A stretch of 64,000 bases of DNA, taken from NCBI GenBank assembly GCA_964574655.1, contig CAZNOH010000001.1, positions 471,020-535,019 of the forward strand, given 5' to 3'. The position numbers were made by a program, and so were the translations under genes. The notes under the pieces are model-generated. The model had not been told where the DNA came from and made no database searches. It saw only the letters and a program-made list of their open reading frames with translations. Numbering within the stretch: position 1 is the stretch's first letter; every line of letters begins with the position of its first letter. Shown here piece by piece: positions 50,762-63,502 of this stretch. Source of the stretch: an uncultured Candidatus Saccharibacteria bacterium. Lineage in GTDB: Bacteria > Patescibacteriota > JABMPQ01 > JAQVVF01.

Positions 50762-50787
50762 CCGAGAATTTTCTCGGTTTTTTATTT
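50762..50787 (+). terminator. Rho-independent terminator
   Basis: ccgagaa-tttt-ctcgg followed by tttttt, directly after the protease stop. Confidence 0.7.
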
Positions 50788-50814
50788 GACAAAAGATATA
50801 TTTTGAAGTATACT
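50786..50814 (+). promoter_or_regulatory. sigma70-type promoter (-35 TTGACA, 17-nt spacer, -10 TATACT)
   Basis: ttgacaaaagatatattttgaagtatact read directly. Followed by the conserved leader TTGTTCTTTTAAAA and SD GAGGAGGAAGAGATG. Confidence 0.6.
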
Positions 50815-50898
50815 ATATTATTGTTCTTTTAAAATTTTTACTTGTCAACCAGCATCAAAGGTTGGCATCAGAAGTGAAAAACAGGAGAGGAGGAAGAG

Positions 50899-51735
50899 AT
50901 GAAACGGACAAAATTGCTTGCTTTGTCAGCTTTGATTTTTTTGGGACTTGCATCTTGTTCAAAACAAGAAATTGCTGTGGAACAAGTTCGCAAAGATGTT
51001 GAAATTTATTATCAACAACTTTTTGCAAAGTCATTCAGATATGTCTGCACACCGAATGTTTTTTCTGTTGATATTTTAGAAAGATGGACAAAAGATGACA
51101 AAACTGAATTGAAAGTCCGTACTGGTTTGAAATTGCAATGTAGATTAACATTGAATTCTGAAGTTAATGGCGATTTTATGACTTCGCGAATTGAAAGTTC
51201 TTCAAATTTGAAAGTTGGATCCAATTTCTTCCAAGATTGTTTCAAAATGCAATATGAGAAATTCAGCGAAGGATTCAAACTGCAAGGAGAGTTTAATCAG
51301 GATGAAAATTGTCCGTCGTCTGAAGTTTTTGATGCCTATAAAAGGTTGGCTCTAGAAAATCTGCTGAAAGAAACTGCTTTGGCGGCGTGCACTTGCAAAC
51401 AGCCAAATTCTAATTGTACGCATGAAGAAAATATTTGTCGAATTTATGAAGAAAGAGATATCAATGGCGATGGAATTGCGGAAATGGTTTTATCTGATGC
51501 GATAAATCCGAGAAATGGAATTGATTTCGGTTCCACTTGGGCAATTATTAATGGAAGTCCTAAAATGATTTTGCCGGCTACTATTTCTTTGAAAGATTTG
51601 CCAGTATCAGATGGCTTTCCAAGTATTAAAACTTCTGACGAAATAGGTTGCTGCTTAGAAATCATTACCACATATCAATTTGATGTTAGACGAGGAGAAT
51701 ATGTCAAGGTTGGCACTTTTGAACGGAAGATATAA
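50899..51735 (+). CDS. lipoprotein (hypothetical), tandem paralog 1
   Basis: Lipobox LGLASC. Shares LLKETALAACTCK, ERDINGDG and other blocks with the next gene. Confidence 0.7.
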   Translation: MKRTKLLALSALIFLGLASCSKQEIAVEQVRKDVEIYYQQLFAKSFRYVCTPNVFSVDILERWTKDDKTELKVRTGLKLQCRLTLNSEVNGDFMTSRIESSSNLKVGSNFFQDCFKMQYEKFSEGFKLQGEFNQDENCPSSEVFDAYKRLALENLLKETALAACTCKQPNSNCTHEENICRIYEERDINGDGIAEMVLSDAINPRNGIDFGSTWAIINGSPKMILPATISLKDLPVSDGFPSIKTSDEIGCCLEIITTYQFDVRRGEYVKVGTFERKI

Positions 51736-51739
51736 AAAT

Positions 51740-51768
51740 TTACCGAAAGTTATCTTTCGGTTTTTTTA
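51740..51768 (+). terminator. Rho-independent terminator (copy 1 of a duplicated element)
   Basis: accgaaag-ttat-ctttcggt followed by ttttttt. An identical hairpin recurs at 52961. Confidence 0.75.
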
Positions 51769-51769
51769 T

Positions 51770-51798
51770 TTGACAAAAAATATAATTTAGAGTATACT
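51770..51798 (+). promoter_or_regulatory. sigma70-type promoter (-35 TTGACA, 17-nt spacer, -10 TATACT)
   Basis: ttgacaaaaaatataatttagagtatact. The conserved TTGTTCTTTTACA leader is 7 nt downstream. SD GAGGAGGAAGGAAGATG. Confidence 0.6.
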
Positions 51799-51863
51799 AT
51801 AATATTGTTCTTTTACATTTTTACTCCCAAATATATAGGCCAGACAACAGAGGAGGAAGGAAG

Positions 51864-52697
51864 ATGACAACGAGACTGATGTTTTTGTGTGTACTTTTCG
51901 CTACTCTCTTTCTTGCGTCATGCAAAAAAGAAGTCAAGGAAGGACAAGTTCGACAAGATGTTGATCAGTTTTATATTTCTATGACCAGACAACATTCTAG
52001 TGGAAATTTGAATTGCAGTTTTTCCATTTCTGATGTCAGCGAGATTGAAAAACTTAGCCGTGATGAAAAAGTTGAGTTAAAAGTAAGACTTGTTGTAACA
52101 AAAAATTGCGTTCGCAAAGAAAACCTTAGTATTTCCCAAACCATTGCCGGCACATTTGATGATAATATGGCCAATCGCGAACCAGGAATTTTTGTATATC
52201 AGGAATGTTTGTCATTGTCTTATGAAATTTTTGATAACGGCTTTAAACTGCGAAATACTTCTATCGATGATAGCTGTCCAGAATCAGCAGACTTCAAAGC
52301 TAGTCAAAAAACTAGGCTTGATACTTTACTGAAAGAAACTGCTTTGGCGGCGTGCACATGCAAGCATGAAAAATGCGAGCCTGGGATGATGGAAGATGCC
52401 TGTGGCATAAAAGCTGAAAGAGATTTAAATGGCGATGGCTTAGTTGAAATTTTGGTGGGCGATACCTGTGGCGGAAATGCTTATATTTGTGGCTTCAGAT
52501 TATGGTCATTGCTCAATGGATTGCCAACTATTATTTTTGAGGATACGAATCTTACAGACCTGCAGGAAATTAAAGCAAATTCAAATGGTAAATTTCCTGT
52601 AATTGAATCAACAGATATTTCATATGATGAAAAATTTTTCTATTTGTATGGTTTCTCTGAAAAGTCAAAATTATACCAACTCATAAAAAAAGGATAG
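51864..52697 (+). CDS. lipoprotein (hypothetical), tandem paralog 2
   Basis: Lipobox LFLASC. LLKETALAACTCK identical to paralog 1. ERDLNGDGLVEILVGD. Confidence 0.7.
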   Translation: MTTRLMFLCVLFATLFLASCKKEVKEGQVRQDVDQFYISMTRQHSSGNLNCSFSISDVSEIEKLSRDEKVELKVRLVVTKNCVRKENLSISQTIAGTFDDNMANREPGIFVYQECLSLSYEIFDNGFKLRNTSIDDSCPESADFKASQKTRLDTLLKETALAACTCKHEKCEPGMMEDACGIKAERDLNGDGLVEILVGDTCGGNAYICGFRLWSLLNGLPTIIFEDTNLTDLQEIKANSNGKFPVIESTDISYDEKFFYLYGFSEKSKLYQLIKKG

Positions 52698-52702
52698 AAA
52701 AA

Positions 52703-52954
52703 ATAAGGACAATTCAATTCAATGGCTTACCTGTCGGGGTAGACATTTATGTTGATGGCAAATTTGCTGGCGTGGCAAAACCTTGTTCTTCTGAGCCTAA
52801 CAATGGCTGTCTGAATGCAGATGTTAAGCAGACTAAAGCAAGAATTGTGATTAAAAAAGCTGGATATAAAACTTCAATTACGGATTGGGATTGGAATATG
52901 CTAGGCAGAATTAATGAAGGAGGTTGGTTTAGCTATTTATTAGAAAAAGAGTAA
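52703..52954 (+). pseudogene. PEGA-like domain coding fragment with no in-frame ATG (the ORF track calls a GTG at 52772). Possible remnant or frameshifted C-terminal extension of the upstream lipoprotein
   Basis: Open frame from 52661. IRTIQFNGLPVGVDIYVDGKFAGVAKP...ARIVIKKAGYKTSITDWDW is a recognisable PEGA/carboxypeptidase-regulatory-like beta-sandwich motif. The only start candidates are GTG 52772 (mid-domain) or non-canonical codons. Confidence 0.3.
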
Positions 52955-52958
52955 AAAT

Positions 52959-52986
52959 TTACCGAAAGTTATCTTTCGGTTTTTAT
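52959..52986 (+). terminator. Rho-independent terminator (copy 2 of the duplicated element)
   Basis: aaatttaccgaaagttatctttcggttttt, identical to 51735-51765. Confidence 0.75.
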
Positions 52987-53038
52987 TTTGCAAAAAATAT
53001 GCTATACTTTAATTTCTAATAAGTAATTTTTAAAAAGC

Positions 53039-53704
53039 ATGAAGAAAATTTTATGCGTTGTAATGGCAATGTGTTTCCTTGTTTCATTGTCATTTGCATT
53101 AAACGCATCAGCAAAAAATGTTAAAAAGAACAAGCCATTAAATGTGACAGTTGATTCATCTGTGCAGGTTCCGGAAAATTTGAAAGTGCTGGATAGAAGA
53201 TCGACAACTAGCCATGTCATTTGGGACGAGGTAGAAGAAGCAGATAAATATGAATTGAGAATTGCTGATAATAATGAGATTGTTTTGGGTTATCTTAGGT
53301 CAAATATTAATTATAAAACTGTTTCTAGTAAATGGTTGGTTTCTAACAAAACTTATAAAATTGCTGTCAGGACAATAAATGGAGCTTTGGCTAGCGAATG
53401 GAGCTCGTATGTTTCTTTCAGGACTAAACCAGCAAAAGTGAAAAATGTTTTAGTCACGAGCATAACTGAAAATTCAGCTGTTGTTTCTTGGAATGCTTGC
53501 AGAGGTTCAAATTTAAAATATCTTGTAAAATTAACTGATGGAAGCAACGAATTAATATCAACTAATTATGTAGCTGGCAGAACTCTAACATTGTCAGGAT
53601 TATCATCAAATACTGCCTACAAAGTTAAAGTACAAGCTCAAAACATCACTAAAAATTCTGATAAAGGCGCTTTGTCTGAAGAAGTTTTATTTGAAACGCT
53701 TTAA
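53039..53704 (+). CDS. secreted protein with two fibronectin type III-like domains
   Basis: Signal peptide MKKILCVVMAMCFLVSLSFALNASA. Two about 90-aa units with the FN3 pattern (PxNLKVLDRRSTTSHVIWDEV...YELRI...Y.I.VRT.N and PAKVKNVLVTSITENSAVVSWNA...YLVKL...AYKVKVQAQN). Confidence 0.7.
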   Translation: MKKILCVVMAMCFLVSLSFALNASAKNVKKNKPLNVTVDSSVQVPENLKVLDRRSTTSHVIWDEVEEADKYELRIADNNEIVLGYLRSNINYKTVSSKWLVSNKTYKIAVRTINGALASEWSSYVSFRTKPAKVKNVLVTSITENSAVVSWNACRGSNLKYLVKLTDGSNELISTNYVAGRTLTLSGLSSNTAYKVKVQAQNITKNSDKGALSEEVLFETL

Positions 53705-53721
53705 ATTAATAATAATTTAAA

Positions 53722-53753
53722 TAAAAAAGCCGAAGAATTTTCTTCGGTTTTTG
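53722..53753. terminator. bidirectional Rho-independent terminator between convergent genes
   Basis: aaaaaagccgaaga-attt-tcttcggttttt. Confidence 0.7.
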
Positions 53754-53772
53754 ATTGAGCAAAAATAGAACA

Positions 53773-54768
53773 TTATTTTTTTTCTAATGCAATTGAAACC
53801 TTTACTGCTGTGCTAAGTGTTTGATCTTCCGGATAAATTGCGATAACCTTAGTTGGGTCAAACAGATAAGCAAGATTGGAGCACTTGGTACATTTTTCTT
53901 GACCGGTTGTCCAATAAAATCCGATATTAATTTTTCTTGCATTCGGTTGCTGGCTCAAAGATGTCAAATAGCTTGCTGTTGCAAGCGCTGTTTTGAATTC
54001 AATAATTCTAATAAGAAATGAACCGTATTCATATTCATAGGCCTTCTTGAATCCCTTGATCTGCTTAGAATAATCGCTACTAGTTCTGGCTTCTTTTAGA
54101 ACGTTGCCTAAAATATTTCCAGGAATTAACAGCTTTTCAGATGACTTAATCTTGGAAATTGATGGCCTTTTTTCTACATCATCTTCTTCAACTTGAATTA
54201 GCGAATCGTCCTCAGATTGACTTGACCTCGGCTTTGATTTTGCTGTTGGCTTTTCATCTGATTCTGAATCGTCAGGATTAATACATTGATTTCGACGATT
54301 AACGAAACAAATAGCTGTGCCGGTTGCCTTGGTGTGCATTCGTTGTGCATTAACATCAACTTTTCCGCCTCGTGCATAGTATTCTACTGATGTTGAGTAA
54401 CGGACATTGATTATTGCACCTAGAATTGAACCATATTGATCATAAGCACGATCGAGCATAAGCCTTGTTGCTTGCTGGTAGTCTGGTTTCAAATCATCAG
54501 GTGGCGCTTCAAGAATATAGCTTTTTTTGTGTACTTTTGTGTCGCCATACTTTTTAAAATTTCTTTCATAGCTTTTTAATTCTGGTGTTGATCTTTTGGA
54601 AAAGTAGGAAGGAACACCTGTTGCTTCTACTTTTCCTAAAACCTTATATTGCCGGCCAGGATTGCCAGATGTATAGGCTTTGATTCTTTCAGGTGACCAA
54701 ATCAGCATTCGACCGCATGACGACAAAAAAATTGACAACAGAATAATAACGATGGCTTGTTGCCTCAT
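53773..54768 (-). CDS. lipoprotein (hypothetical) with acidic/Ser-rich central linker
   Basis: Lipobox IFLSSCG. SD CAAGGAGGCAGGGAAATG on the minus strand. Confidence 0.65.
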   Translation of the reverse strand: MRQQAIVIILLSIFLSSCGRMLIWSPERIKAYTSGNPGRQYKVLGKVEATGVPSYFSKRSTPELKSYERNFKKYGDTKVHKKSYILEAPPDDLKPDYQQATRLMLDRAYDQYGSILGAIINVRYSTSVEYYARGGKVDVNAQRMHTKATGTAICFVNRRNQCINPDDSESDEKPTAKSKPRSSQSEDDSLIQVEEDDVEKRPSISKIKSSEKLLIPGNILGNVLKEARTSSDYSKQIKGFKKAYEYEYGSFLIRIIEFKTALATASYLTSLSQQPNARKINIGFYWTTGQEKCTKCSNLAYLFDPTKVIAIYPEDQTLSTAVKVSIALEKK

Positions 54769-54853
54769 TTCCCTGCCTCCTTGTTCCCTTTCTTTGTGTA
54801 AGGTGCGAGTAATAATATAATACTTTAAAAATTGATGATTGTCAAGTTAAATT

Positions 54854-54882
54854 TGACAAAAATTATTTATTATCTTATATTA
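54854..54882 (+). promoter_or_regulatory. candidate sigma70-type promoter in divergent intergenic region (-35 TTGACA, -10 TATATT)
   Basis: atttgacaaaaattatttattatcttatatta. The TGTTCTTTTAAAA leader motif is at 54906. SD GAGGAGGAAGGAATG. Confidence 0.45.
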
Positions 54883-54949
54883 TATAGTTGCATTATGTTT
54901 GTAATGTTCTTTTAAAATTTAATTTCCCGCGAGAAAAGAGGAGGAAGGA

Positions 54950-56335
54950 ATGAAAGACAATGCCAGAAAGTTTTCTTTGGCAATTTTTGTGGCGATTTTG
55001 GTTTGTTTTTTGATGCCTTTTTTGGATTTGTCGTGCGGAGAACAAAAAATTGTCAACTTAACTGGATTGGAACTTATTACTGGAAAAACAATTGCAGATT
55101 CAAGTATTTACGGCGTGGAAAATAATCATACTCATCCGCATCTGTTGGTTATTTTAGCTTCTTTATGCTCAATTGCAGGTTTTGTTTTTGTTTATGTGAA
55201 GGGCAAATCAAGGCTTATTTCTTCGGCATTAAGCTTGCTGGGATTTGTTTTTTTACTGAAGTTTAAAATTCTGATGGATGGCAATATTGCTGAAAAAGGC
55301 GATGGCATGATTTTTGCTGACTGGCGATATGGTTTTTGGTTGGCATGCGTTCTATTTATCTTGGCATCTGTTATTTGCTTGGTTGCTTATTATCGGGAAA
55401 AAAGTAAGACAGTTGTTTCTGGCACGATGATTAGTTGTTTTGCTGTTTTTTTTGTTGCTTTGATAGGATATAACTGCAATTCGAATAAAACACCATCTTT
55501 TAGAGAATTAGCGAAATCTGACGCTTCTTGGGATTTACATCCTATTTGGCATCCACAGAAAAACATTGTTATTTTTGAACGCTGGGATGAGAATATTGGC
55601 TGGAATACTTACCAATTGAACATGAATGATTTTGCTATTGCCAGATTTAAGCCTGCAAGCAACTTTGATGATTATAATAGCATTGATTGGTTTTCTGATG
55701 GCAATAGTTTTGTCTTTTGGACTGGCGGAAATGTGAATGCGCCTCCTAAAATTTGGCGTTATGATTCGAATAATCAGGTTTCTGAATTAGCTGACAATGC
55801 TGCTCATCCGTGCTGGATTAATAATTATAAAAGCATTATTTATATGGACACGCAACGCGGTGATTCGATTTGGCTGATGGATGGCAATGGCAATAATAAA
55901 CGCCTTCTAATTAAACCAGGTTCCGCTCCTGATTGCATGGCAGACGGCGAATGGTTTGTTTATAATTCAAGACCGTCAAGAGATGATTTTAGAGGAAATA
56001 TTTATGCTTTTAACATTGCCAGCCAACAGATGATTTCTATCACAAATAGTGATAATGCCAAAAGTGCCAGTTTTTCTTTTGATGGTAAAAAAGTAGTCTA
56101 TGTTAGAATTGTTCTTCCAGAAAAATATGATAGAGATAAAGAAGTAATAATTGAGAGCAGTAAATACCAAATAGTTGTTGTTGATTTTCCAAGCCTAGAA
56201 AATGAAAGAGTCATTTTTGAGAGTTTGGGTATTGTTGAGTGCACTCCAACGATATCTCCTAATAGTAAGCACTTGGCATGGTGCCATAGCGAAGGGGGGC
56301 GTAAATTTAGTCACATACGATTTCTTGAACTTTGA
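54950..56335 (+). CDS. membrane-anchored TolB-like beta-propeller protein
   Basis: Four N-terminal TM helices (about 180 aa), then a WD40/PD40-like repeat pattern (SIDWFSDGNSFVFW, SIIYMDTQRGDSIWLMDGNG, NIYAFNIASQQ, FSFDGKKVVYV). Confidence 0.6.
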   Translation: MKDNARKFSLAIFVAILVCFLMPFLDLSCGEQKIVNLTGLELITGKTIADSSIYGVENNHTHPHLLVILASLCSIAGFVFVYVKGKSRLISSALSLLGFVFLLKFKILMDGNIAEKGDGMIFADWRYGFWLACVLFILASVICLVAYYREKSKTVVSGTMISCFAVFFVALIGYNCNSNKTPSFRELAKSDASWDLHPIWHPQKNIVIFERWDENIGWNTYQLNMNDFAIARFKPASNFDDYNSIDWFSDGNSFVFWTGGNVNAPPKIWRYDSNNQVSELADNAAHPCWINNYKSIIYMDTQRGDSIWLMDGNGNNKRLLIKPGSAPDCMADGEWFVYNSRPSRDDFRGNIYAFNIASQQMISITNSDNAKSASFSFDGKKVVYVRIVLPEKYDRDKEVIIESSKYQIVVVDFPSLENERVIFESLGIVECTPTISPNSKHLAWCHSEGGRKFSHIRFLEL

Positions 56336-56363
56336 ACAGCTTATTTATAAGCTGTTTTTTTAT
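56336..56363 (+). terminator. Rho-independent terminator
   Basis: acagcttat-ttat-aagctgt followed by tttttt. Confidence 0.7.
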
Positions 56364-56374
56364 TAACAATTTAT

Positions 56375-56403
56375 TTGTTGCTTTATTAAAAATGTGCTAT
56401 AAT
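56375..56403 (+). promoter_or_regulatory. promoter: -35 TTGTTG, 17-nt spacer, extended -10 TGcTATAAT
   Basis: ttgttgctttattaaaaatgtgctataat read directly. Confidence 0.5.
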
Positions 56404-56428
56404 TTTATTGTTAAATTTGATTTGAGAT

Positions 56429-56920
56429 ATGAAAACAAAAAAAGAAATTACAATTAATGATTTGGCCAAGTTACTTGAAAAGCTTGGCGAAAAAGTTGAA
56501 AAGTTATCTGTGAAAATGGATACAGGTTTTAAGAAAAATGACGTGCGATTTTTTAGTTTAGAGAGAAAGATGGAGACTGGTTTTAAAAACCAAGAAAAAA
56601 AGTTAGAAGAAAAATTCGACAAAAAAATTTCAGAGCTTGCGTTGATGGTTGCAAAAGGTTTTAAAGAAACTGCATCTAAAGAAGAAGCTGCTACAAAAAT
56701 AGATATAGAAAATTTAAATTTAAAGATTGATAATGTTGAAGAATCTTTGATAAATAAAATTGATTCTGCAAAAGGTGATGTAATTCTGATTATTAGAAAA
56801 TTAGATGAAAAGATAATTGTTTTAGTTGATTTTCTTAAGGGTCATCAAATTTTAAACGATGTTGAATACGAAAAGCTATGCAAAATAAAGGCTTTTCAAA
56901 CTATTGAGCTTAAGTCTTAA
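56429..56920 (+). CDS. K/E-rich coiled-coil protein (hypothetical)
   Basis: 163 aa, heptad-like LEKLGEKVEKLSVKMD..., with no TM or signal peptide. Confidence 0.5.
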   Translation: MKTKKEITINDLAKLLEKLGEKVEKLSVKMDTGFKKNDVRFFSLERKMETGFKNQEKKLEEKFDKKISELALMVAKGFKETASKEEAATKIDIENLNLKIDNVEESLINKIDSAKGDVILIIRKLDEKIIVLVDFLKGHQILNDVEYEKLCKIKAFQTIELKS

Positions 56921-56945
56921 TTTTAAAAATAAATAACACAACAAA

Positions 56946-57704
56946 ATGAGACAAAAAAGATTTTTGGTGTTGTCGCTTGTTTTAGGAAGCGCGTTGTTGA
57001 TAACAACAGCTTTTGCAAGTGCAACATCCGTATGGACAACTGATTCTATGCTAGTAAAGAAAGTAGCAACAGTTGGAACAAATAGCAATAAAGGACAATT
57101 GCTAGTAAAAGGTTTTATCAGAAATCCTGTCAAAGGCAAAAAAGTTTATGTAAAAGATCATTTGAAAGTTCAAGGCAATGTTCAAGTTGGCGGAATTTTG
57201 CAAGGAAACAATATTGTAAGTGCTGACAATCTTGGAACTGGTGTTGTAACTGAAACAAAATTGGGAACTGGCGCGGTAACTGCTGATAAATTAGGAACAG
57301 GCGCTGTAACAACTGATAAATTAGGAACAGGCGCGGTATCTTCTGCAAAAATTGCTGATGACGCTGTAAATGCTGATAAATTAGATTTTTCGATTGATGG
57401 CGTGGTAAAGGCGGCGGCGTATGGAACACAAGCAACTTGCAATAGTACTGCTTTGGCAAGATCTTTTAATAAGTTGGCTTCTAGTAGCGCAACTTGTTCA
57501 CGTACAAGTACTGGTATTTATACTGTAAATTTTAACACGACTATAAGTAGTAGATTTTTTCAGGTTACGCCGTTACACACTTCAGATATTTATCCGGTCA
57601 TTAACTCTTTACCTTCTAGCACAATAGAAATTTATTTTTATGATGCTGCTGGGGCTACTGCCGACTTAACTGATCCAACTGGATTTTATATAACTGTTTA
57701 TTAA
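56946..57704 (+). CDS. secreted surface protein, paralog of 18015..18548, with an inserted KLGTGAVTxD repeat array
   Basis: MRQKRFLVLSLVLGSALLITTAFASATSVWTTDSMLVKKVATVGTNSNKGQLLVKGFIRNPVKGKKV aligns to the 18015 gene. Four tandem (K/N)LGTG(A/V)VT(A/T/E)(D/T) units. Shared C-terminal GFYITVY. Confidence 0.7.
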   Translation: MRQKRFLVLSLVLGSALLITTAFASATSVWTTDSMLVKKVATVGTNSNKGQLLVKGFIRNPVKGKKVYVKDHLKVQGNVQVGGILQGNNIVSADNLGTGVVTETKLGTGAVTADKLGTGAVTTDKLGTGAVSSAKIADDAVNADKLDFSIDGVVKAAAYGTQATCNSTALARSFNKLASSSATCSRTSTGIYTVNFNTTISSRFFQVTPLHTSDIYPVINSLPSSTIEIYFYDAAGATADLTDPTGFYITVY

Positions 57705-57836: not shown

Positions 57837-60686
57837 CTAGCGTCTCATGATTTCAAAGTAGTGCTGGATTTCAGCGTCGGAAAGTGCCTTGTTGAAGAAG
57901 GAAAATTCGTCGATGGTCATATCGCTTTTTTGACCACCAACGTTCTGTGCACCTAAAAGCATTGCATTTCCAATAATATTTACATACGGGCCATTCCAAA
58001 TGGGCACGCCATCATTATAGACTGTGAAATTTCCGTTTTGATATTTTGCGGCAAACGCGTACAGTTGATTAGCGTTAACGTTTACCATTTGTGCAAATCG
58101 TTCCTGTGACAAATAAAATGTCCACTTAAATCCGTCATCTGTCGAAAGTATCCCGAGTCCAGGCATTCTGTTACGTGAGAAAATCATGTCTCCTGTTTCA
58201 TACGTTCGTACTTTAACAGACACGAAGTATGTGAACTCATTCGCAATGCTGTCCATACTCACACTATCAGCCACCTCGGCGTAGTCGTCAACTCCGTCGA
58301 ACGATGCAGCCTGGCCACAAACTGCATCCGCAGTGAAAGTGGCGCCGTGGTTGACAGCATTGTTGGCATTTGGCGAACCATCATTGAAGTGGTTGTCAAA
58401 CGACAGGTACATGACCAACGACCGGCAGTCTTCATCAACAGCGCCATCGCAGTCATTGTCAACCTGATCGCAGATTTCCACTCCGCAGTTGGTAACCGTA
58501 CATTCACAGCCATCAGTAGGATTAGCATTCACATCGAAGCGGAAGCGGTTGCACTGCAACACGCACTGTCCTGCTACACAACGCGAGCTAGAAGTCCCCT
58601 GATTTCCGCAAACGCGATTGCATTGGCCACAGTTCAATGGATCAACCAAGAGGTCGAAGCCATTGTCTGCAGTACCATCACAATCGTTGTCCAGGCCATC
58701 ACAGATTTCAGCAACTGATGTGATCTGATTCTGGCATTCTCCCCACTCACGGCTCTCCCAGCAGATCTGCGTTCCGATCTGGCATTCGCCGACATCGGTA
58801 CCGCAGTTGCGAGAAACACCTGGTGAGCAACAGCCAATCAGATTTTCGTCAGTTTCAGAATTGCAATTGTTATCCAGACCATCGCAGATTTCATCAGACG
58901 GTCCAGTTGCACCTTCGCACCAGCCCCAAGAGCGGTTGGCCTGGCAAGTGGAAGTTCCCTTCTCACATTCGCCAGTGTCAATTCCGCAATAGGAAAGATC
59001 ACGAGGTTCGCAACAACCTTCCAAATCTTCATCAGTCGAATCGTCGCAATCGTTGTCCAAGCCATCGCAGATTTCATCTGTCGACGGATTGGCAATTGCG
59101 TTGCAACTACTGGTCTGGTCATTAACACATGCAATCACGCCTTCGGCATAACATTCGCCAACGCCGTTAGAGCAAAAATTGCGAGTGTTAAAACCTTCAT
59201 CAGTGTTGTGATCGCAATTGTTATCAAGGCTATCGCAGATTTCGTTGCTCGACTGAACCTCGCCTTCACAGGCAAGCCAGACGCCAGCGAAACAAGACTG
59301 CACGCCCTTCTGACACTCACCGACATCATTGCCACATTCCTGCGTCAATGCTTCGTCGGTTGCGCCATCGCAATCATTGTCCTTGTTGTCGCAAAGCTCG
59401 TCGTGAGACAGGCCAGCAACAGCATTGCAGAACGTTGACTGCTGATCAATGCCACATACCAACTGACCAAGCGACAAGCACGCGCCTACGCCGATCTGGC
59501 ACTCTGCGCCAAGATTGACATAAGCTTCATCAGTGTTGCCGTCGCAGTTGTTATCTTTGGCATCGCATAGTTCAGCCGTGGGCTTCACTTCGTCAGTGCA
59601 TTCACTCCACACACCATCTTGCGAGCAAGTCTTGCGACCCTTTTGGCATTCGCCAACATTGGAGCCACATACGACCTGATCATTTGCATTGCAACATCCA
59701 ACCAAATCCTCATCAGTTGCGCCATCGCAGTCATTGTCCTGCTGGTCGCAAGCTTCTTCGGTTGGCTGAATGGTCTGTGCATTGCAAGTTGCTGAAAGCT
59801 TGTCATCACTGCAAACATAAACACCGCGCGAAATACAGAGACCTTGACCGATCTGGCAGGCACTTTCAAGGTTTACGAAATCCTCGTCAGTGTTACCGTC
59901 ACAGTCATTGTCCAACAAGTCGCAAAGATCTGCAGATGGGTCAACAGCATTTTCACACTGGCCCCAACTACCGTCTTCTTGACAAGTCATTTGACCCTTC
60001 TGGCATTCCCCGACATCATTGCCACATTCCTGAACATCGTTTTGATCGCAACAGCCAACCAATTCTTCATCGATTGTGCCATCGCAATCGTTATCCAGTT
60101 CATCACACTCTTCAGGAATTGCCTGACCAGCGACTGCATTGCAAGTCGTAGTGTTGCCGTCAGCGCTACAAACGTAGACGCCTTCTGCAAAACATTCGCC
60201 CTTGCCAACATTGCAGACCTGATTTAGGTTGTCGAAACCTTCATCAGTCTGATTGTCGCAGTCGTTGTCCTTGCCATCGCAGATTTCAGTGGACGGAATA
60301 CAAGGAATGTCAGCACCTGTATCAGGAGTCGTGTCTGGCTCACTGTCAGGCGAAACATCTTTGCCACCACCTGAGTCTACATCTGGAGTTCCAACTTCAG
60401 CATCAGCTTCGGGGCCAACTTCAGCGTCTGCTTCAGCATCAGGCCCTGCATCAAAGCAATTGGTGCATACGGCCTTGCAAACTGTGTCCTTGTCGGCGTG
60501 AAGCATTTCATCGTTGAGTTCGTTGCTTTCAACACAGATCTTTTTCTCATTCAAGCAAACACAAGTGAACTTTTCAGTACAAAGCGCATTTTCATCACAG
60601 AGATTCTTTTTGTCCATGTCGTCAAAACTCTGCAAACATCCAGAAATTGCCAACGCAAAAAACATAGCCAGCGTTCTCGTTGTCAT
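57837..60686 (-). CDS. lipoprotein with about 12 MopE-like 'CDGxDNDCDGxTDE' Cys-rich repeats and a C-terminal LamG/concanavalin-A-like domain
   Basis: Lipobox ALAISGC. Alternating repeat types (…DNDCDGxTDEgF.NL…C..G.G.C…G..VC and …DNDCDGxxDE.L.GCC…CG..VGECQKG..TC). C-terminal FDGVDDYAEV…KWTFY…NGNFTVYNDG matches the Laminin_G_3 pattern. GC about 50-53% against about 28% for the glycan locus. SD GAGGAGGAAGGAAAATG. Confidence 0.85.
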   Translation of the reverse strand: MTTRTLAMFFALAISGCLQSFDDMDKKNLCDENALCTEKFTCVCLNEKKICVESNELNDEMLHADKDTVCKAVCTNCFDAGPDAEADAEVGPEADAEVGTPDVDSGGGKDVSPDSEPDTTPDTGADIPCIPSTEICDGKDNDCDNQTDEGFDNLNQVCNVGKGECFAEGVYVCSADGNTTTCNAVAGQAIPEECDELDNDCDGTIDEELVGCCDQNDVQECGNDVGECQKGQMTCQEDGSWGQCENAVDPSADLCDLLDNDCDGNTDEDFVNLESACQIGQGLCISRGVYVCSDDKLSATCNAQTIQPTEEACDQQDNDCDGATDEDLVGCCNANDQVVCGSNVGECQKGRKTCSQDGVWSECTDEVKPTAELCDAKDNNCDGNTDEAYVNLGAECQIGVGACLSLGQLVCGIDQQSTFCNAVAGLSHDELCDNKDNDCDGATDEALTQECGNDVGECQKGVQSCFAGVWLACEGEVQSSNEICDSLDNNCDHNTDEGFNTRNFCSNGVGECYAEGVIACVNDQTSSCNAIANPSTDEICDGLDNDCDDSTDEDLEGCCEPRDLSYCGIDTGECEKGTSTCQANRSWGWCEGATGPSDEICDGLDNNCNSETDENLIGCCSPGVSRNCGTDVGECQIGTQICWESREWGECQNQITSVAEICDGLDNDCDGTADNGFDLLVDPLNCGQCNRVCGNQGTSSSRCVAGQCVLQCNRFRFDVNANPTDGCECTVTNCGVEICDQVDNDCDGAVDEDCRSLVMYLSFDNHFNDGSPNANNAVNHGATFTADAVCGQAASFDGVDDYAEVADSVSMDSIANEFTYFVSVKVRTYETGDMIFSRNRMPGLGILSTDDGFKWTFYLSQERFAQMVNVNANQLYAFAAKYQNGNFTVYNDGVPIWNGPYVNIIGNAMLLGAQNVGGQKSDMTIDEFSFFNKALSDAEIQHYFEIMRR

Positions 60687-60833: not shown

Positions 60834-60856
60834 TAAAAAAAAGACTCTAAGAGTCT
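60834..60856 (-). terminator. Rho-independent terminator for the minus-strand C-type lectin gene
   Basis: Minus-strand agactc-tta-gagtct followed by tttttttt. Confidence 0.65.
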
Positions 60857-60862
60857 AAATGA

Positions 60863-62146
60863 TTAAAAAAGTTCGTTCCATTCACAGAAAAAAGGACGAG
60901 TCAAGCCGCAGAAAGCATCATTCCAACCGCCATTTGGTGGCAAGTCAATGCGAATTTCTACGCAATCTTCACCGCTTGCGCCAATAGCTTGAGAGTTATT
61001 TGGTTCTCCAGAAGCCCATTCAAGGACATCTGAAATTTCGCCAGATTCCCAGACCCAGGTATTTTCTTGCGCAATATCGTTTAAACCGATCCAGGCGGAA
61101 AAATAGCCTAATTGCAAGGTGTAAAAATATCCGTCTTCAAGCAAATCATTTATTGTAGCAAGATGACTGTTAAATCTTCGGCAATATTGAACTGCTTCAA
61201 TCCAAACAAGCTCTTGGTTGCAATAAGCATAAGTATGATTTTGATATTCCATAATTTGGCAATTCATATCTAAGCATTGGCCTTCTAGACAGATGCCTTG
61301 AGGCTGGCAGGGATTATTTTCATCTGTCTCCCCATCGCAATCATTATCTAGTCCATCGCAAATTTCATCAGTTTTCAGCCATAATTTTTCTTCTGCATCA
61401 CAATTTGAAAGCAAATCACCATCGCAAGCAATCTGGCCTAGAGCTCTACAAACTCCATTTCCAATTTCACAATATTCGCCAATTAGAAAACCGTCATCAA
61501 TTTCTTCATCGCAGTCATTATCTAAGCCATCACAAATATCATGTTCTGGATTCTTGCTATTACATTCTGACCATGTGCCAAAGGCTAAACATGTTTGTCT
61601 GCCAAGTCTGCATTCACCAATATTGCTGTTTCCGCAAATTCTCGTCTCGGTTACTATGCAACAATCTTCAAGATTTTCATCAGTCTCGCCATCACAATCG
61701 TTGTCTAGGCTATCACAGACTTCATCTGTTTTTAGCCAAGACCTTTCTTCAGCATTACAAAACGAATATTCATGAGTCTCACAGAAAAAATGGCCAGTTC
61801 CCGTACAAACTCCTTTTCCATTTTCACAATGTTCGCCTACTTTGAAATTTTCATCAATCTCGCCATCACAATCGTTGTCTTGATTATCACAAATTTCTTT
61901 GACACATTCTATGTTGTTTTCTGTATCTGGTTCATCAGTTTTTTCATCGTTATCGTCCTGATTTCTTGAATCTTCTCGGATTAATACCTCTGGTTGAATT
62001 AATTTTTCACAAATTCCAGAAATACAATAATAGCCATCAACGCAGTCAAAAATTTCAGAGCATTGATTTTTTGCTTCTAATCCTGTTGAATCAAAACTGC
62101 ATCCGCATGCCAAAATCGCTAGACAAAGACATGTTGCTCGTTGCAT
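60863..62146 (-). CDS. lipoprotein with 4 MopE-like Cys-rich repeats and a C-terminal canonical C-type lectin carbohydrate-recognition domain
   Basis: Signal peptide MQRATCLCLAILACGCS. Repeats CDNQDNDCDGEIDE, CDSLDNDCDGETDE, CDGLDNDCDEEIDD, CDGLDNDCDGETDE. CTLD hallmarks YCRRFNSHLATI, WIGLND, WVWESGE, WASGEPNN, EDCVEI, GGWNDAFC, FFCE. Confidence 0.85.
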   Translation of the reverse strand: MQRATCLCLAILACGCSFDSTGLEAKNQCSEIFDCVDGYYCISGICEKLIQPEVLIREDSRNQDDNDEKTDEPDTENNIECVKEICDNQDNDCDGEIDENFKVGEHCENGKGVCTGTGHFFCETHEYSFCNAEERSWLKTDEVCDSLDNDCDGETDENLEDCCIVTETRICGNSNIGECRLGRQTCLAFGTWSECNSKNPEHDICDGLDNDCDEEIDDGFLIGEYCEIGNGVCRALGQIACDGDLLSNCDAEEKLWLKTDEICDGLDNDCDGETDENNPCQPQGICLEGQCLDMNCQIMEYQNHTYAYCNQELVWIEAVQYCRRFNSHLATINDLLEDGYFYTLQLGYFSAWIGLNDIAQENTWVWESGEISDVLEWASGEPNNSQAIGASGEDCVEIRIDLPPNGGWNDAFCGLTRPFFCEWNELF

Positions 62147-62193
62147 TTGTGTCTCCTTGTTTTGAGTGTGCAGGCATTCATTTACCGCTTTAT

Positions 62194-62222
62194 ATTATAT
62201 AACAAATTGCTAGAAATTGCAA
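62194..62222 (-). promoter_or_regulatory. candidate promoter (minus strand -35 TTGCAA, 17-nt spacer, -10 TATAAT)
   Basis: Minus-strand reading ttgcaatttctagcaatttgttatataat. SD AAGGAGACACAAATG follows. Confidence 0.45.
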
Positions 62223-62227
62223 GAGAA

Positions 62228-62253
62228 TAAAAAAAACGCCATAAATAGCGTTT
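62228..62253 (-). terminator. weak Rho-independent terminator overlapping the stop of the 62252 gene
   Basis: Minus-strand aaacgc-tatttatg-gcgttt followed by tttttt. The stem is only 6 bp. Confidence 0.4.
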
Positions 62254-63346
62254 AGAAATAAAGGTTCAATGATACGCCGCTTGGATTCGGAATAATAATC
62301 GCCTGTGGCGATTTGGGATTCTTGTGAATGATTTCGAAATGATCAAGCAAGAAAAGCGTTGCGCCAGTTGCCAAAGCGCCTCCGCCATAAATAAACATGG
62401 TGTTGGCCATGGCAGCTGAAGATTGTGATTCATCTCTGAAAGAAACAGCCTGACGCTGAATATTGGTTCCCTCATAATTGGCTCTGGAAGTATTGGCAGA
62501 AACGCCGAAATACCCACCAGTTCCAACCATTCCAGCTCCAAGACTCATCAATGCAATACCGCTCCATGCATGCCAGTCAAGGCCTTTTTTGATCTTGGGC
62601 TCTGCTGTCTTAACAACTTCAGCAACAGGCTTCAGCTCTTCTGGCCTTACCTCTTCCCCCACTTCTTCCTCGACTGGTGCAGGAGGCGGTGGGATAACTT
62701 CCAATTCTTGTGGCTGAAGACCGAGAAAGGCTTCATCAGCACGCAGACTGGGCATTCGTTCTGCCCAAATCATCGGCGTTTTCCGCAAAATTGCGACTGT
62801 TGCATCTGCAATTTCGGGCACTGTCTTGTCATAAACCTCTTCTGACGCACAAGACTTGCATACCCAAGTCATTTCAATCCTATTGTTGATGGCATCAAAA
62901 AGCGTCAGATCTATGGAAAGCCTTGCCTTGGGCTTGGTCGTTTTCGCACCCTTGACCTTCTTCTTGCCCTTAGCCTTCTGTACTGCTAGCTTACCTTTTT
63001 CCTTGACGATCGTGCCATATAGCATTCTTCCCATTTGCTTGGTAACACAAACGTTTCGGACACATCCTTCAGTGGCAAAACACTGACGGATTTCCTCATT
63101 GTTCTTGATACCAAAGATTTCTTGTCCAGCAAAATTCAATCCAAGGTTTGCCCCTGCAAATTTTGCGATCAAAAGTTCGATAACGGAATCTGAGAGATTC
63201 GGCTCCTGACTTTTGTTGCCCGGAATGACAACAATCGCAAAATCAGGATGTTCAATCTTTTTTTCTCCATCGATAGGTTCTTGAGCGTACGCAATTCTAG
63301 AAAACAAAGTAATCAAAATCAACATTGTAATGTGCGCGGTTCTCAT
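62252..63346 (-). CDS. secreted protein with Lys-rich and Pro/Glu-rich linkers and a Gly-rich hydrophobic C-terminal region ending LNLYF (hypothetical)
   Basis: SD GGAGGGAAGG sits directly before the second Met (MRTAHITMLILITLFSRIAYAQ), so the start is placed at 63346 rather than 63358. GC about 47%. Confidence 0.6.
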   Translation of the reverse strand: MRTAHITMLILITLFSRIAYAQEPIDGEKKIEHPDFAIVVIPGNKSQEPNLSDSVIELLIAKFAGANLGLNFAGQEIFGIKNNEEIRQCFATEGCVRNVCVTKQMGRMLYGTIVKEKGKLAVQKAKGKKKVKGAKTTKPKARLSIDLTLFDAINNRIEMTWVCKSCASEEVYDKTVPEIADATVAILRKTPMIWAERMPSLRADEAFLGLQPQELEVIPPPPAPVEEEVGEEVRPEELKPVAEVVKTAEPKIKKGLDWHAWSGIALMSLGAGMVGTGGYFGVSANTSRANYEGTNIQRQAVSFRDESQSSAAMANTMFIYGGGALATGATLFLLDHFEIIHKNPKSPQAIIIPNPSGVSLNLYF

Positions 63347-63502
63347 CCTTCCCTCCATTGTCCGCCAAAGCTAAGCTACGGCGGGCTGTCTTCTGTGTCG
63401 GAGCACTGTTTTGGCTTCATATTAGTGTAACAAAAGATTATCCACTTGTCAAGTTTCACTATTTGATATTTTTCCTGTATAATATAATATGTATTTTAAT
63501 AT

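What the first reader, a model, noticed from the sequence alone, without database searches (positions are those of the whole stretch)
60863..62146. Canonical animal-type C-type lectin domain (EPN and WND motifs) fused to MopE-like Cys repeats in a bacterial lipoprotein
The C-terminal about 130 aa shows every hallmark of a long-form Ca-dependent carbohydrate-recognition domain in the canonical order: YCRRFNSHLATI, WIGLND, WVWESGE, W.SGEPNN, EDCVEI, GGWNDAFC, FFCE. EPN is the mannose/glucose/GlcNAc-type specificity triplet. WND is the second Ca/sugar ligand set. To my knowledge, canonical C-type lectin domains with intact Ca/sugar-ligand triplets are uncommon in bacteria; most bacterial CLec-fold proteins lack them. 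Here it is appended to four 'CDxLDNDCDGETDE' modules behind a signal peptide. That architecture looks like an extracellular, multivalent glycan-binding adhesin. It could bind host or prey glycans, or the cell's own elaborate surface glycan encoded next door.
Basis: partly seen in the sequence, partly recalled or inferred. Interest (0 to 1): 0.85.

Follow-up and report, generated by a model that had tools for sequence, protein, structure and literature searches.

The report
C-type lectin lipoprotein of a Patescibacterium
A tiny-genome (Patescibacteria/CPR) bacterium encodes a membrane-anchored surface protein whose tip is a true calcium-type sugar-binding (C-type lectin) domain. This kind of domain turns out to be fairly common in uncultured bacteria, so the gene is a good adhesin candidate rather than a new kind of thing.

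Summary
The ORF is real (60863-62146, minus strand, 427 aa) and every quoted motif is present.

**Observation confirmed**
- Pfam Lectin_C scores 55.9 bits (cut-off 22.6). The best solved relatives are animal carbohydrate-recognition domains (CRDs), E down to 4e-25.
- An AlphaFold model (pLDDT 79) superposes on sugar-binding CRDs at TM about 0.8.
- EPN, the EDC glutamate and WND align in register with Endo180 CRD2.
- Four MopE-type Cys/Asp modules and a conserved lipobox precede the domain.

**Interpretation only partly right**
- EPN/WND C-type lectin domains (CTLDs) are not rare in bacteria. Two narrow peptide patterns found 31 GTDB species and 233 metagenome loci, several with the same lipobox-MopE-CTLD layout.
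- One CRD per chain is not multivalent.
- Nothing suggests recent animal origin. GC3 is at genome background, the gene has its own sigma-70-like promoter, Shine-Dalgarno (SD) site and terminator, and no relative outside the orthologues exceeds about 40% identity.

**New context**
- The window belongs to a Patescibacteria genome.
- The gene lies in a lipoprotein island. It keeps the same order with a MopE-LamG lipoprotein and an unknown membrane protein in the window and one related contig; two short contigs from a third genome each keep one side of that order.

**Best reading:** a membrane-anchored, Ca-dependent Man/GlcNAc/Fuc-type lectin on a disulfide-rich stalk, probably binding another cell's glycans. 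It is a new member of a known kind, and its function is untested.

The parts
60863..62146 (-). Whole gene: 427-aa lipoprotein with a MopE-type stalk and a C-terminal C-type lectin domain (stop codon included)
   Evidence: ORF. Pfam Lectin_C and Cu-binding_MopE. The identical protein is in the NCBI-derived collection as P0001 on a 654,272-bp contig.
62099..62146 (-). Signal peptide and lipobox (residues 1-16, ...LACGC; Cys16 is the predicted acylated residue)
   Evidence: By sequence inspection. The Cys aligns with FSGC and NASC in orthologues P0002 and P0003. AlphaFold predicts a helix at residues 2-13.
61919..61996 (-). Acidic low-complexity linker (residues 51-76), predicted disordered
   Evidence: pLDDT is below 50 for residues 51-76 in the full-length model.
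61262..61906 (-). Disulfide-rich stalk (residues 81-295). It holds four MopE-type CDxxDNDCDGxxDE motifs (61850-61891, 61676-61717, 61493-61534, 61319-61360), each followed by a small Cys-knot-like module, and it contains an internal duplication
   Evidence: Regex hits. Pfam PF11617. Internal repeat 61316-61540 versus 61673-61897 at 71% nucleotide identity and the protein self-alignment. Ten-residue block mean pLDDT is 65-94 across the stalk. No PDB sequence relative at E <= 1.
60866..61261 (-). Long-form C-type lectin domain (residues 296-427) with six Cys (296, 309, 322, 395, 413, 421)
   Evidence: Pfam Lectin_C 55.9 bits. PDB sequence hits. AlphaFold pLDDT 79 and pTM 0.79. Foldseek TM 0.76-0.81 to solved CRDs.
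60998..61006 (-). EPN triplet (residues 381-383), the Ca site 2 / Man-type specificity motif
   Evidence: Aligns with EPN of Endo180 CTLD2. Invariant in the three orthologues.
60917..60925 (-). WND triplet (residues 408-410), the second half of Ca site 2
   Evidence: Aligns with WND of Endo180 CTLD2. Invariant in the three orthologues.
62153..62222 (-). The gene's own sigma-70-like promoter (TTGCAA-17-TATAAT, 62222-62194) and Shine-Dalgarno site AAGGAG (62158-62153)
60842..60856 (-). Intrinsic-terminator-like hairpin followed by a T-run, just after the stop codon
57837..60686 (-). Conserved downstream partner: a 949-aa lipoprotein with 11 MopE-type motifs and a C-terminal Laminin_G_3 (ConA-like) domain. 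It has its own promoter (60824-60796) and SD site
   Evidence: Pfam. Motif count. Same gene order in L032 and L033. 65% and 50% identity to those orthologues. Promoter.
62252..63358 (-). Conserved upstream neighbour: a 368-aa secreted or membrane protein of unknown family, with an N-terminal signal sequence, a Pro/Glu/Lys-rich linker and a C-terminal hydrophobic hairpin. A terminator follows at 62253-62234
   Evidence: No Pfam, NCBIfam or meaningful PDB hit. Orthologues occupy the same position in L032 (29% identity) and L034 (59%).

Best explanation
The gene encodes a cell-surface lectin of a Patescibacteria (CPR) bacterium.

- After Sec export and lipidation at Cys16, the protein is tethered to the cytoplasmic membrane. 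This is inferred from the lipobox.
- A disordered acidic linker and a rigid stalk follow. The stalk carries about 18 possible disulfides and is probably Ca-stabilised. It is built from four MopE-type modules and holds one long-form C-type CRD away from the membrane.
- The CRD keeps every ligand of Ca sites 1 and 2: D/E in WIGLND-x3-E, EPNN, ED, WND. It should therefore bind sugars with equatorial 3- and 4-OH groups (Man, GlcNAc, Glc, Fuc type) in a Ca-dependent way. This follows from the established EPN rule and is not shown here.
- The gene is transcribed on its own but keeps a fixed position next to a MopE-LamG lipoprotein and an unknown membrane protein, inside an island of lipoproteins.
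- Patescibacteria are thought to live attached to other cells. The most likely job is therefore recognition of, or adhesion to, glycans on another cell (a host). Binding to the cell's own Fuc/Man/Galf-containing glycan is the main alternative.
For: **Domain identity**
- Pfam Lectin_C 55.9 bits (cut-off 22.6).
- PDB sequence hits: DEC-205, Endo180, mannose receptor, CD23, SRCL, collectins.
- AlphaFold pLDDT 79 and pTM 0.79.
- Foldseek TM 0.76-0.81, rmsd 2-3 A, to sugar-binding CRDs. These include Endo180 CRD2 with bound methyl fucoside (9qy1) and CL-K1.

**Ligand set**
- EPN, EDC and WND align without register shift to Endo180 CTLD2.
- D62, E66, E86-P87-N88-N89, E98 and W113-N114-D115 (CTLD numbering) are invariant in all three orthologues.
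- Against the closer orthologue P0002 the CTLD is the best-conserved part of the protein: 79% identity, against 63% for the stalk and 49% for the N-terminus.

**Surface anchoring**
- The lipobox is conserved.
- There are 36 Cys after the lipobox Cys, an even number.
- The stalk is confidently modelled but the overall pTM is 0.41, which fits beads on a string.

**Native bacterial gene**
- GC3 is 0.27, against a background of 0.16-0.30.
- It has its own promoter, SD site and terminator.
- Conserved neighbourhood in L032, and in L033/L034 (two short contigs carrying the same orthologue). In L032 three more neighbours are shared.

**Taxon**
- CysN is 87% identical to a cluster of proteins named 'Patescibacteria group bacterium', with two NCBI accessions on different contigs.
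- Six of the seven shared genes are 83-94% identical at protein level to that 645-kb contig and keep the same order; the DUF1616 gene is 64%.
- That contig encodes bL19, GyrA and RluA.

**Concept**
- Essential envelope proteins with glycan-binding domains in a cultivated Patescibacterium were proposed to target host glycans (PMC10633639).
Against: - No binding data exist.
- The EPN rule is a tendency, not a law.
- The loop between EPNN and EDC has 8 residues, against 5 in the aligned Endo180 CTLD2, and it is the least confident part of the model: pLDDT is below 50 at model residues 95-99. Specificity, or even sugar access, could therefore differ.
- Model coordinates could not be inspected, so convergence of the side chains on a Ca site was not checked.
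- The Patescibacteria assignment rests on submitters' labels of close relatives, not on marker genes of this contig.
- The closest sequenced relative (the 645-kb contig) yielded no CTLD orthologue in the protein search, so the gene is not universal in the lineage.
- The three genes are separate transcription units, so a functional link between them is only inferred from conserved order.
Confidence: 0.6

Rival explanations
1. Self-glycan binding. The lectin binds the cell's own surface polysaccharide or glycoprotein, made by the 5-47 kb glycan locus, to organise or retain the glycocalyx or to mediate cell-cell cohesion among kin.
For: - The window encodes GDP-mannose 4,6-dehydratase plus a second epimerase/reductase of the same fold (consistent with GDP-fucose synthesis), two UDP-galactopyranose mutases, RmlD, CysDN, about 15 glycosyltransferases and flippases.
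- EPN CRDs typically accept Man and Fuc.
- The orthologue in L032 also lies within 10 kb of sugar-nucleotide genes.
Against: - The glycan genes are at least 12 kb away and separated by about nine other genes.
- The lectin gene is its own transcription unit.
- Proximity may only reflect conserved gene order among close relatives.
- The glycan structure is unknown.
Confidence: 0.2
2. The CTLD is a non-lectin binding module that binds protein, mineral or ice, as many CTLDs do. The EPN/WND residues would serve only structural Ca binding.
For: - Many CTLDs bind non-sugar ligands.
- Foldseek also hits herring type II antifreeze protein and lithostathine.
- The EPNN-EDC loop is atypically long and poorly modelled.
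Against: - All five site-2 ligands and the site-1 ligands are present and invariant across orthologues that are only 46% identical overall in the domain.
- The best structural matches are sugar-binding CRDs.
Confidence: 0.12
3. It is a diversity-generating-retroelement (DGR) target. CLec-fold variable proteins are common in CPR and DPANN genomes, and the C-terminal domain would be hypermutated to change ligand specificity.
For: - DGR targets with CLec folds are reported as frequent in Patescibacteria (literature seen).
- Among MopE-stalk homologues some carry FGE-sulfatase/CLec-type heads (P0043, P0051, P0059, P0076).
Against: - No second copy (template repeat) of the CTLD DNA occurs anywhere in the 64-kb window.
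- No reverse-transcriptase family appears among the Pfam hits of the ORFs scanned, which cover nearly all window ORFs of 150 aa or more.
- The domain is a canonical Lectin_C, not the Mtd/FGE type.
- Against the closer orthologue it is the most conserved part of the protein, not the most variable.
Confidence: 0.02
4. It is a recent acquisition from an animal, or eukaryotic contamination of the assembly.
For: - The best PDB and Pfam relatives are animal proteins.
- The 150 best proteins in the representative library are almost all long multi-CTLD proteins.
Against: - GC3 matches the host genome.
- The gene has a bacterial promoter, SD site and terminator.
- It is fused to bacterial MopE modules and a lipobox.
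- It is syntenic in the window and the related contigs.
- No relative outside the orthologues exceeds about 40% identity.
- The best non-orthologous domains are prokaryotic or metagenomic.
Confidence: 0.03

Closest known systems
Animal Ca-dependent carbohydrate-recognition domains of the EPN class (for example Endo180/uPARAP CTLD2, CD23, dectin-2, SRCL, collectin CL-K1, DC-SIGN family)
   Same: - Same Pfam family (Lectin_C).
- Same predicted fold, TM about 0.8.
- Long-form six-Cys pattern and WIGL core.
- EPN, the Glu of EDC and WND occupy the same alignment positions.
   Different: - Only 22-32% identity in structural alignment.
- The second Cys of the N-terminal hairpin is shifted relative to most other CTLDs aligned here.
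- The EPNN-EDC loop has 8 residues, against 5 in Endo180 CTLD2.
- There is no coiled-coil neck or transmembrane anchor. Instead the domain is lipid-anchored through a bacterial lipobox and carried on MopE-type modules.
- It is encoded in a Patescibacteria genome.
Other bacterial lipobox + MopE-repeat + C-terminal CTLD proteins from MAGs (L001/L040 'Alphaproteobacteria bacterium' MAG, 5 motif matches; L047, 13; P0050 and P0057)
   Same: - Same three-part architecture, and EPN/WND intact in L001, L040, L047 and P0057.
- L001 and L040 are the best-scoring non-orthologous CTLDs, at 77-79 bits.
   Different: - About 39% identity in the CTLD.
- High-GC organisms.
- The stalks use a different MopE sub-type (DGDG-rich), and no LamG partner was examined.
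- P0050 has QPN and lacks WND.
MopE of Methylococcus capsulatus / Pfam PF11617 'putative metal-binding motif' proteins of Myxococcota
   Same: - The CDxxDNDCDGxxDE motif matches PF11617 above threshold.
- Thousands of homologues carry the same modules: 3458 proteins at E <= 1e-3 among the candidates scored.
   Different: - No detectable sequence similarity to any solved structure, MopE itself included, at E <= 1.
- Copper binding is not implied.
- The Asp/Asn/Glu-rich motif looks more like a Ca site. That is an inference from my own knowledge of LDL-receptor class A and thrombospondin type 3 repeats, and it was not tested.
CLec-fold variable proteins of diversity-generating retroelements (Mtd, TvpA, archaeal and CPR targets)
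   Same: C-terminal C-type-lectin-like fold on a surface protein in an ultra-small-genome lineage.
   Different: - A different subfamily: canonical Lectin_C with Ca ligands.
- No template repeat or reverse transcriptase in the window.
- The domain is conserved rather than variable.

Membership tests
C-type lectin domain (Pfam PF00059 Lectin_C; Ca-dependent CRD) | Profile match above the curated gathering score over essentially the whole domain | tested here: met
   55.9 bits against a cut-off of 22.6. Residues 314-422 match profile positions 4-106 of 107.
C-type lectin domain (Pfam PF00059 Lectin_C; Ca-dependent CRD) | CTLD fold (two helices, two antiparallel sheets, long loop region) | tested here: met
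   On a predicted structure only. AlphaFold pLDDT 79 and pTM 0.79 with the expected secondary-structure order. Foldseek probability 1.00 and TM 0.76-0.81 to more than 500 CTLD chains.
C-type lectin domain (Pfam PF00059 Lectin_C; Ca-dependent CRD) | Four core Cys (C1-C4) plus the extra N-terminal pair of long-form domains; WIGL motif | tested here: met
   Cys 322, 395, 413 and 421 plus 296 and 309; WIGLND at 352. Model residues 7-12 and 15-24 (protein residues 296-301 and 304-313) form an N-terminal hairpin. Disulfide pairing itself was not testable.
C-type lectin domain (Pfam PF00059 Lectin_C; Ca-dependent CRD) | Ca site 2 / sugar ligands: EPN (or QPD), the Glu before the core Cys, and WND, in register with solved CRDs | tested here: met
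   phmmer alignment to Endo180 CTLD2 pairs EPN-EPN, EDC-EDC and WND-WND. The residues are invariant in the three orthologues.
C-type lectin domain (Pfam PF00059 Lectin_C; Ca-dependent CRD) | Side chains converge on a Ca ion; Ca-dependent sugar binding | not testable with these tools
Confirmation needs a glycan array with Ca and with EDTA, and a structure.
Bacterial lipoprotein (Lgt/LspA substrates) | N-terminal signal peptide ending in a lipobox [LVI][ASTVI][GAS]C | tested here: inconclusive
   ...AILACGC|SFDS. The -3 to -1 residues A-C-G are an imperfect lipobox, but the Cys is conserved in position with FSGC and NASC of the orthologues and ISGC of the LamG partner. No predictor was available and lipidation is untested.
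PF11617 Cu-binding_MopE / putative metal-binding motif repeats | Profile match above threshold; repeated CDxxDNDCDGxxDE motif | tested here: met
   51.5 bits against a cut-off of 27; four regex copies. Metal binding was not tested, and no sequence similarity to solved structures was found.
DGR variable (target) protein | Variable repeat at the 3' end of the gene paired with a nearby template repeat and a reverse transcriptase | tested here: not met
   blastn of the CTLD DNA against the window finds only itself. No reverse-transcriptase family appears in the Pfam scans of window ORFs. Only the 64-kb window could be examined.

The most novel reading that the evidence does not exclude
The CTLD lipoprotein, its MopE-LamG partner and the unknown upstream membrane protein form a conserved host-recognition module of one Patescibacteria lineage. 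In this reading a Ca-dependent EPN-type lectin reads a specific glycan on the envelope of the host bacterium and so sets host range. It would be a lectin-based counterpart of the type IV pilus attachment known in Saccharibacteria.
Probability: 0.2. Interest if true: 0.7.

Novelty: new member of a known kind. Interest (0 to 1): 0.35.

Why it matters
How ultra-small Patescibacteria recognise and hold on to their host cells is largely unknown, and few candidate receptors with a predictable ligand class exist. This gene offers a small, expressible domain (about 135 aa) with a textbook Ca/sugar site, so its ligand can be read on a glycan array. Conserved partner genes could be tested alongside it.

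More broadly, the survey here shows that intact EPN/WND C-type lectin domains are widespread as tip domains of bacterial surface proteins. I found no experimental paper on them in the held library. The class as a whole is under-studied, even though this member is not unique.

Tried and rejected
- **Archaeal origin.** CysN's more distant hits are mostly DPANN archaea, and a DUF1616 ORF is present. I rejected this because the close relative's contig has bL19, GyrA and RluA and the genes here have sigma-70-like promoters, SD sites and intrinsic terminators.
- **DGR target.** Rejected (and the Pfam scans).
- **Recent transfer from animals, or contamination.** Rejected on GC3, regulatory signals, synteny and per-domain scores.
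- **Identifying the contig directly.** Exact look-ups of two window proteins found nothing. The GTDB representative scan did not contain this genome.
- **Word-indexed search with the CTLD alone.** It returned only 9 candidates.
- **Full HMMER search of representatives.** It returned 18,002 proteins, but the top list is dominated by long multi-CTLD proteins and carries no taxonomy, so it could not separate bacterial from eukaryotic relatives.
- **Neighbour-joining tree of 83 domains.** It resolves only the three-orthologue clade.
- **The stalk.** No PDB sequence match, and the full-length fold search hit only CTLDs.
- **The upstream 368-aa protein.** No Pfam, NCBIfam or PDB relative even at E <= 1.
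- **The afdb50 fold library.** It was unavailable.
- **Literature searches.** Searches for characterised bacterial Lectin_C proteins and for PF11617 gave nothing specific.
Full report
**1. The observation**

The window has one ORF at exactly 60863..62146 on the minus strand: 427 aa with an ATG start. All the quoted strings are present in the stated order. There are four copies of the CDxxDNDCDGxxDE motif, at residues 86, 144, 205 and 263.

Pfam scores the C-terminus as Lectin_C at 55.9 bits (curated cut-off 22.6, E = 8.4e-15), covering nearly the whole profile. It scores the middle as Cu-binding_MopE at 51.5 bits (cut-off 27). NCBIfam has no model for the protein.

**2. Is it a canonical Ca/sugar-type domain?**

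- phmmer against all PDB sequences gives 139 hits at E <= 1e-3. The 60 best that were listed are all named as animal-type CTLD proteins: DEC-205, Endo180, mannose receptor, PLA2R, CD23, SRCL, aggrecan, MGL, ASGR, mincle, collectins, DC-SIGN family, langerin and selectins.
- In the printed alignment to Endo180 CTLD2, EPN pairs with EPN, EDC with EDC and WND with WND. The only gaps in that stretch are a 3-residue gap in the loop between EPNN and EDC and short gaps just after the EDCV strand. Endo180 CTLD2 has been crystallised with methyl fucoside (9qy1). So the refutation criterion 'alignment fails when gaps are optimised' is not met.
- AlphaFold2 on the domain with a 10-sequence alignment gives pLDDT 79 and pTM 0.79, with the expected hairpin-helix-helix-sheet order. 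The weakest part is model residues 95-99, inside that long loop.
- Foldseek against the PDB returns over 500 CTLD chains at E <= 1e-3. The top ones are sugar-binding CRDs at TM 0.76-0.81 and rmsd about 2-3 A. None of the 50 best matches listed is an intimin, invasin, Mtd or FGE-type CLec fold.
- From established knowledge of CRDs (rat MBP-A numbering E185, N187, E193, N205, D206 for site 2; D161, E165, N188, D194 for site 1), the equivalents here are E381, N383, E393, N409 and D410, and D357, E361, N384 and D394. All are present, and all are invariant in the three orthologues. This mapping is from memory plus the Endo180 alignment. The geometry could not be checked because model coordinates are not exposed.

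**3. The rest of the protein**

- The N-terminus MQRATCLCLAILACGC|SFDS is a signal peptide whose last Cys lines up with the lipobox Cys of the orthologues (FSGC|VFDS, NASC|SFDS) and of the LamG neighbour (ISGC).
- The full-length model (pLDDT 77, pTM 0.41) has a signal helix and a small Cys-rich knot (residues 29-48). A disordered acidic linker (51-76) follows, then a mostly confident stalk (81-295) and the CTLD. This fits beads on a string.
- After the lipobox Cys there are 36 Cys, an even number.
- The stalk contains an internal duplication: 61316-61540 versus 61673-61897 at 71% nucleotide identity. The window protein has four MopE modules where the orthologues have three.
- The stalk has no sequence relative among solved structures at E <= 1. 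The full-length fold search found only CTLDs.

**4. Surroundings**

Each of the three minus-strand genes at 57.8-63.4 kb is its own transcription unit:
- a terminator hairpin and T-run at 62253-62234
- TTGCAA-17-TATAAT at 62222-62194
- AAGGAG 7 nt before the ATG at 62146
- a terminator at 60856-60842
- TTGACA-17-CATAAT at 60824-60796
- GAGGAGGAAGG before the LamG gene

The downstream gene (57837-60686) is a 949-aa lipoprotein with 11 MopE motifs and a C-terminal Laminin_G_3 domain. The upstream gene (62252-63358) has no detectable family.

From 48.5 to 57.7 kb there is a run of lipoproteins and secreted proteins. They include a Cys-rich S8 subtilase, an FN3 protein and a membrane protein with only weak, sub-threshold PD40 (beta-propeller repeat) similarity. 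From about 1 to 47 kb lies a very large glycan-synthesis locus:
- CysD/CysN
- two UDP-galactopyranose mutases
- GDP-mannose dehydratase and a second epimerase/reductase of the same fold
- RmlD
- flippases
- about 15 glycosyltransferases
- a GT-C enzyme
- a radical-SAM enzyme and methyltransferases

**5. Relatives and synteny**

The identical protein is in the NCBI-derived collection on a 654,272-bp contig. Only two orthologues turned up among 5.8 billion clustered proteins:
- P0002, from SRA runs SRR24425299 and SRR24425292: 47% identity overall and 79% in the CTLD.
- P0003, from a MAG named CSMAG_2461, a prefix used in a published cold-seep genome catalogue: 36% overall and 46-47% in the CTLD.

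A scan of JGI metagenome contigs found nothing closer than 40%.

In L032 the order [unknown about 370-aa protein] - [MopE-CTLD] - [MopE-LamG] is kept. L033 keeps CTLD - LamG, and L034, which carries the same orthologue, keeps the upstream protein - CTLD. In L032 three further neighbours of the window are also shared. The LamG protein is 65% and 50% identical to its orthologues.

**6. Which organism?**

- The window's CysN is 87% identical to a cluster of proteins named 'Patescibacteria group bacterium', with two NCBI accessions (MFA6296302.1 and MDD3887333.1) on different contigs.
- The first 9 kb of the window is collinear with the 645-kb contig carrying one of them. Six of the seven shared genes are 83-94% identical at protein level; the DUF1616 gene is 64%.
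- That contig encodes bacterial ribosomal protein bL19, GyrA and an RluA-type synthase.
- Together with the bacterial expression signals above, this makes a Patescibacteria (CPR) bacterium the best assignment. It is an inference from close relatives, not from markers on this contig.
- The more distant CysN hits are mostly DPANN archaea, and a DUF1616 (archaeal family) ORF lies next to it. This suggests exchange of glycan and sulfation genes between the two ultra-small groups.

**7. How unusual is it?**

- Using only two narrow peptide patterns, the GTDB species-representative scan found 31 loci. They come from Myxococcota, Saprospiraceae, Chitinophagales, Verrucomicrobiota, Poribacteria, Actinomycetota, Cyanobacteria and others. 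In 21 of them the ORF contains both an EPN and a WND string.
- The metagenome scan confirmed 233 loci.
- L001/L040 (5 MopE motif matches) and L047 (13) are lipobox + MopE + C-terminal EPN/WND CTLD proteins from high-GC bacteria. Other bacteria mount the same head on myxococcal Cys repeats, RTX-like repeats or a pilin-like N-terminus.
- The stalk family is huge (3458 hits at E <= 1e-3 among the candidates scored) and carries other heads: LamG, VWA and FGE-sulfatase.
- Both the domain and the architecture are therefore recurrent in uncultured bacteria. The collection's precomputed Pfam annotation already labels this protein PF00059 + PF11617.
- In the held literature I found no experimental study of a bacterial Lectin_C CRD.

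**8. Origin**

- GC3 of the gene (0.27) equals the genome background of 0.16-0.30.
- After the orthologues, the best per-domain phmmer scores are prokaryotic or metagenomic: L001 79 bits, L040 77 bits, and gut-metagenome contigs 72 bits. The best domain of any multi-CTLD protein scores 68 bits.
- A neighbour-joining tree resolves only the three-orthologue clade.
- There is no sign of recent transfer from animals. The deep origin is unresolved.

**9. Mechanism**

Shown:
- domain identity
- an intact ligand set
- the secretion and lipobox signal
- the modular stalk
- independent transcription
- conserved neighbourhood

Inferred:
- lipid anchoring
- disulfide- and Ca-stabilised projection of a single CRD
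- Ca-dependent binding of Man/GlcNAc/Glc/Fuc-type sugars, from the EPN rule
- a role in binding glycans of another cell

The last inference fits the epibiotic lifestyle of cultivated Patescibacteria. It also fits the proposal that their glycan-binding envelope proteins target host glycans (PMC10633639).

'Multivalent' is not supported for a single chain. Avidity could come only from surface density or from the LamG partner.

The main rival is binding of the cell's own Fuc/Man/Galf-type glycan. Non-sugar binding, DGR targeting and eukaryotic origin are unlikely or rejected.

**10. Verdict**

This is a new member of a known kind: a bacterial surface protein tipped by a canonical C-type CRD. It gains some interest because it sits in a Patescibacteria genome, in a conserved block with a LamG partner, which makes it a testable candidate for host-glycan recognition.

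Noticed in passing
window 57837-60686 and 62252-63358, against 60863-62146; also L032, L033, L034: The LamG gene (GC3 0.48) and the upstream 368-aa gene (GC3 0.43) lie far above the genome background (0.16-0.30). The CTLD gene between them is at background (0.27). The same pattern holds in the orthologous loci of two other genomes. It is unexplained; expression-linked codon bias or different acquisition ages are possibilities.
   Followed up: partly
window 1919-3157, 3298-4101, 4518-4970: CysN's hits beyond its own lineage are mostly DPANN archaea at 54-62% identity. The adjacent small ORF matches DUF1616, described as an archaeal family. The same arrangement occurs in the related Patescibacteria contig. 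This suggests exchange of glycan and sulfation genes between CPR bacteria and DPANN archaea.
   Followed up: partly
window about 5000-47400: A very large surface-glycan locus. It holds two UDP-galactopyranose mutase paralogues (5009-6112, 30322-31410), GDP-mannose dehydratase plus a second epimerase/reductase of the same fold, RmlD, two or three flippases, about 15 glycosyltransferases, a GT-C enzyme (26886-29261), a radical-SAM enzyme and four methyltransferases. Several large ORFs have no family, for example 20955-24560 (1201 aa). This is a striking investment if the genome is as small as its Patescibacteria assignment suggests.
   Followed up: partly
window 48563-57704: A run of predicted lipoproteins and secreted proteins with lipobox-like N-termini. 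It includes an S8 subtilase with 38 Cys, two paralogous about 278-aa lipoproteins, an FN3 protein and a multi-pass membrane protein with only weak PD40 repeat similarity. Three of them have counterparts next to the orthologue in L032.
   Followed up: partly
window 62252-63358; L032 8707-9843; L034 3-635: The unknown upstream protein has a conserved C-terminal pair of Gly/Ala-rich hydrophobic segments. Its last residues are ...LNLYF...LNLSF or ...FALSF, which resembles an outer-membrane beta-signal. That would be odd for a supposedly monoderm Patescibacterium.
   Followed up: no
window 61316-61540 versus 61673-61897: An internal duplication (71% nucleotide identity) adds a fourth MopE module to the stalk. 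The orthologues have three modules and the LamG partner eleven, so stalk length varies in this family.
   Followed up: yes
homologues P0043, P0051, P0059, P0076, P0109, P0060, P0067: The same MopE-type stalk carries other C-terminal heads in other organisms: FGE-sulfatase/CLec type (possible DGR targets), VWA and LamG. This suggests a modular 'stalk plus exchangeable binding head' design.
   Followed up: no
L045 (metagenome contig Ga0105047_10070756): A protein with a type IV pilin-like N-terminus and a C-terminal EPN/WND C-type lectin domain. It may be a lectin-tipped pilin.
   Followed up: no
window 1-64000: No tRNA gene and no Rfam family at gathering threshold anywhere in the 64 kb.
   Followed up: yes
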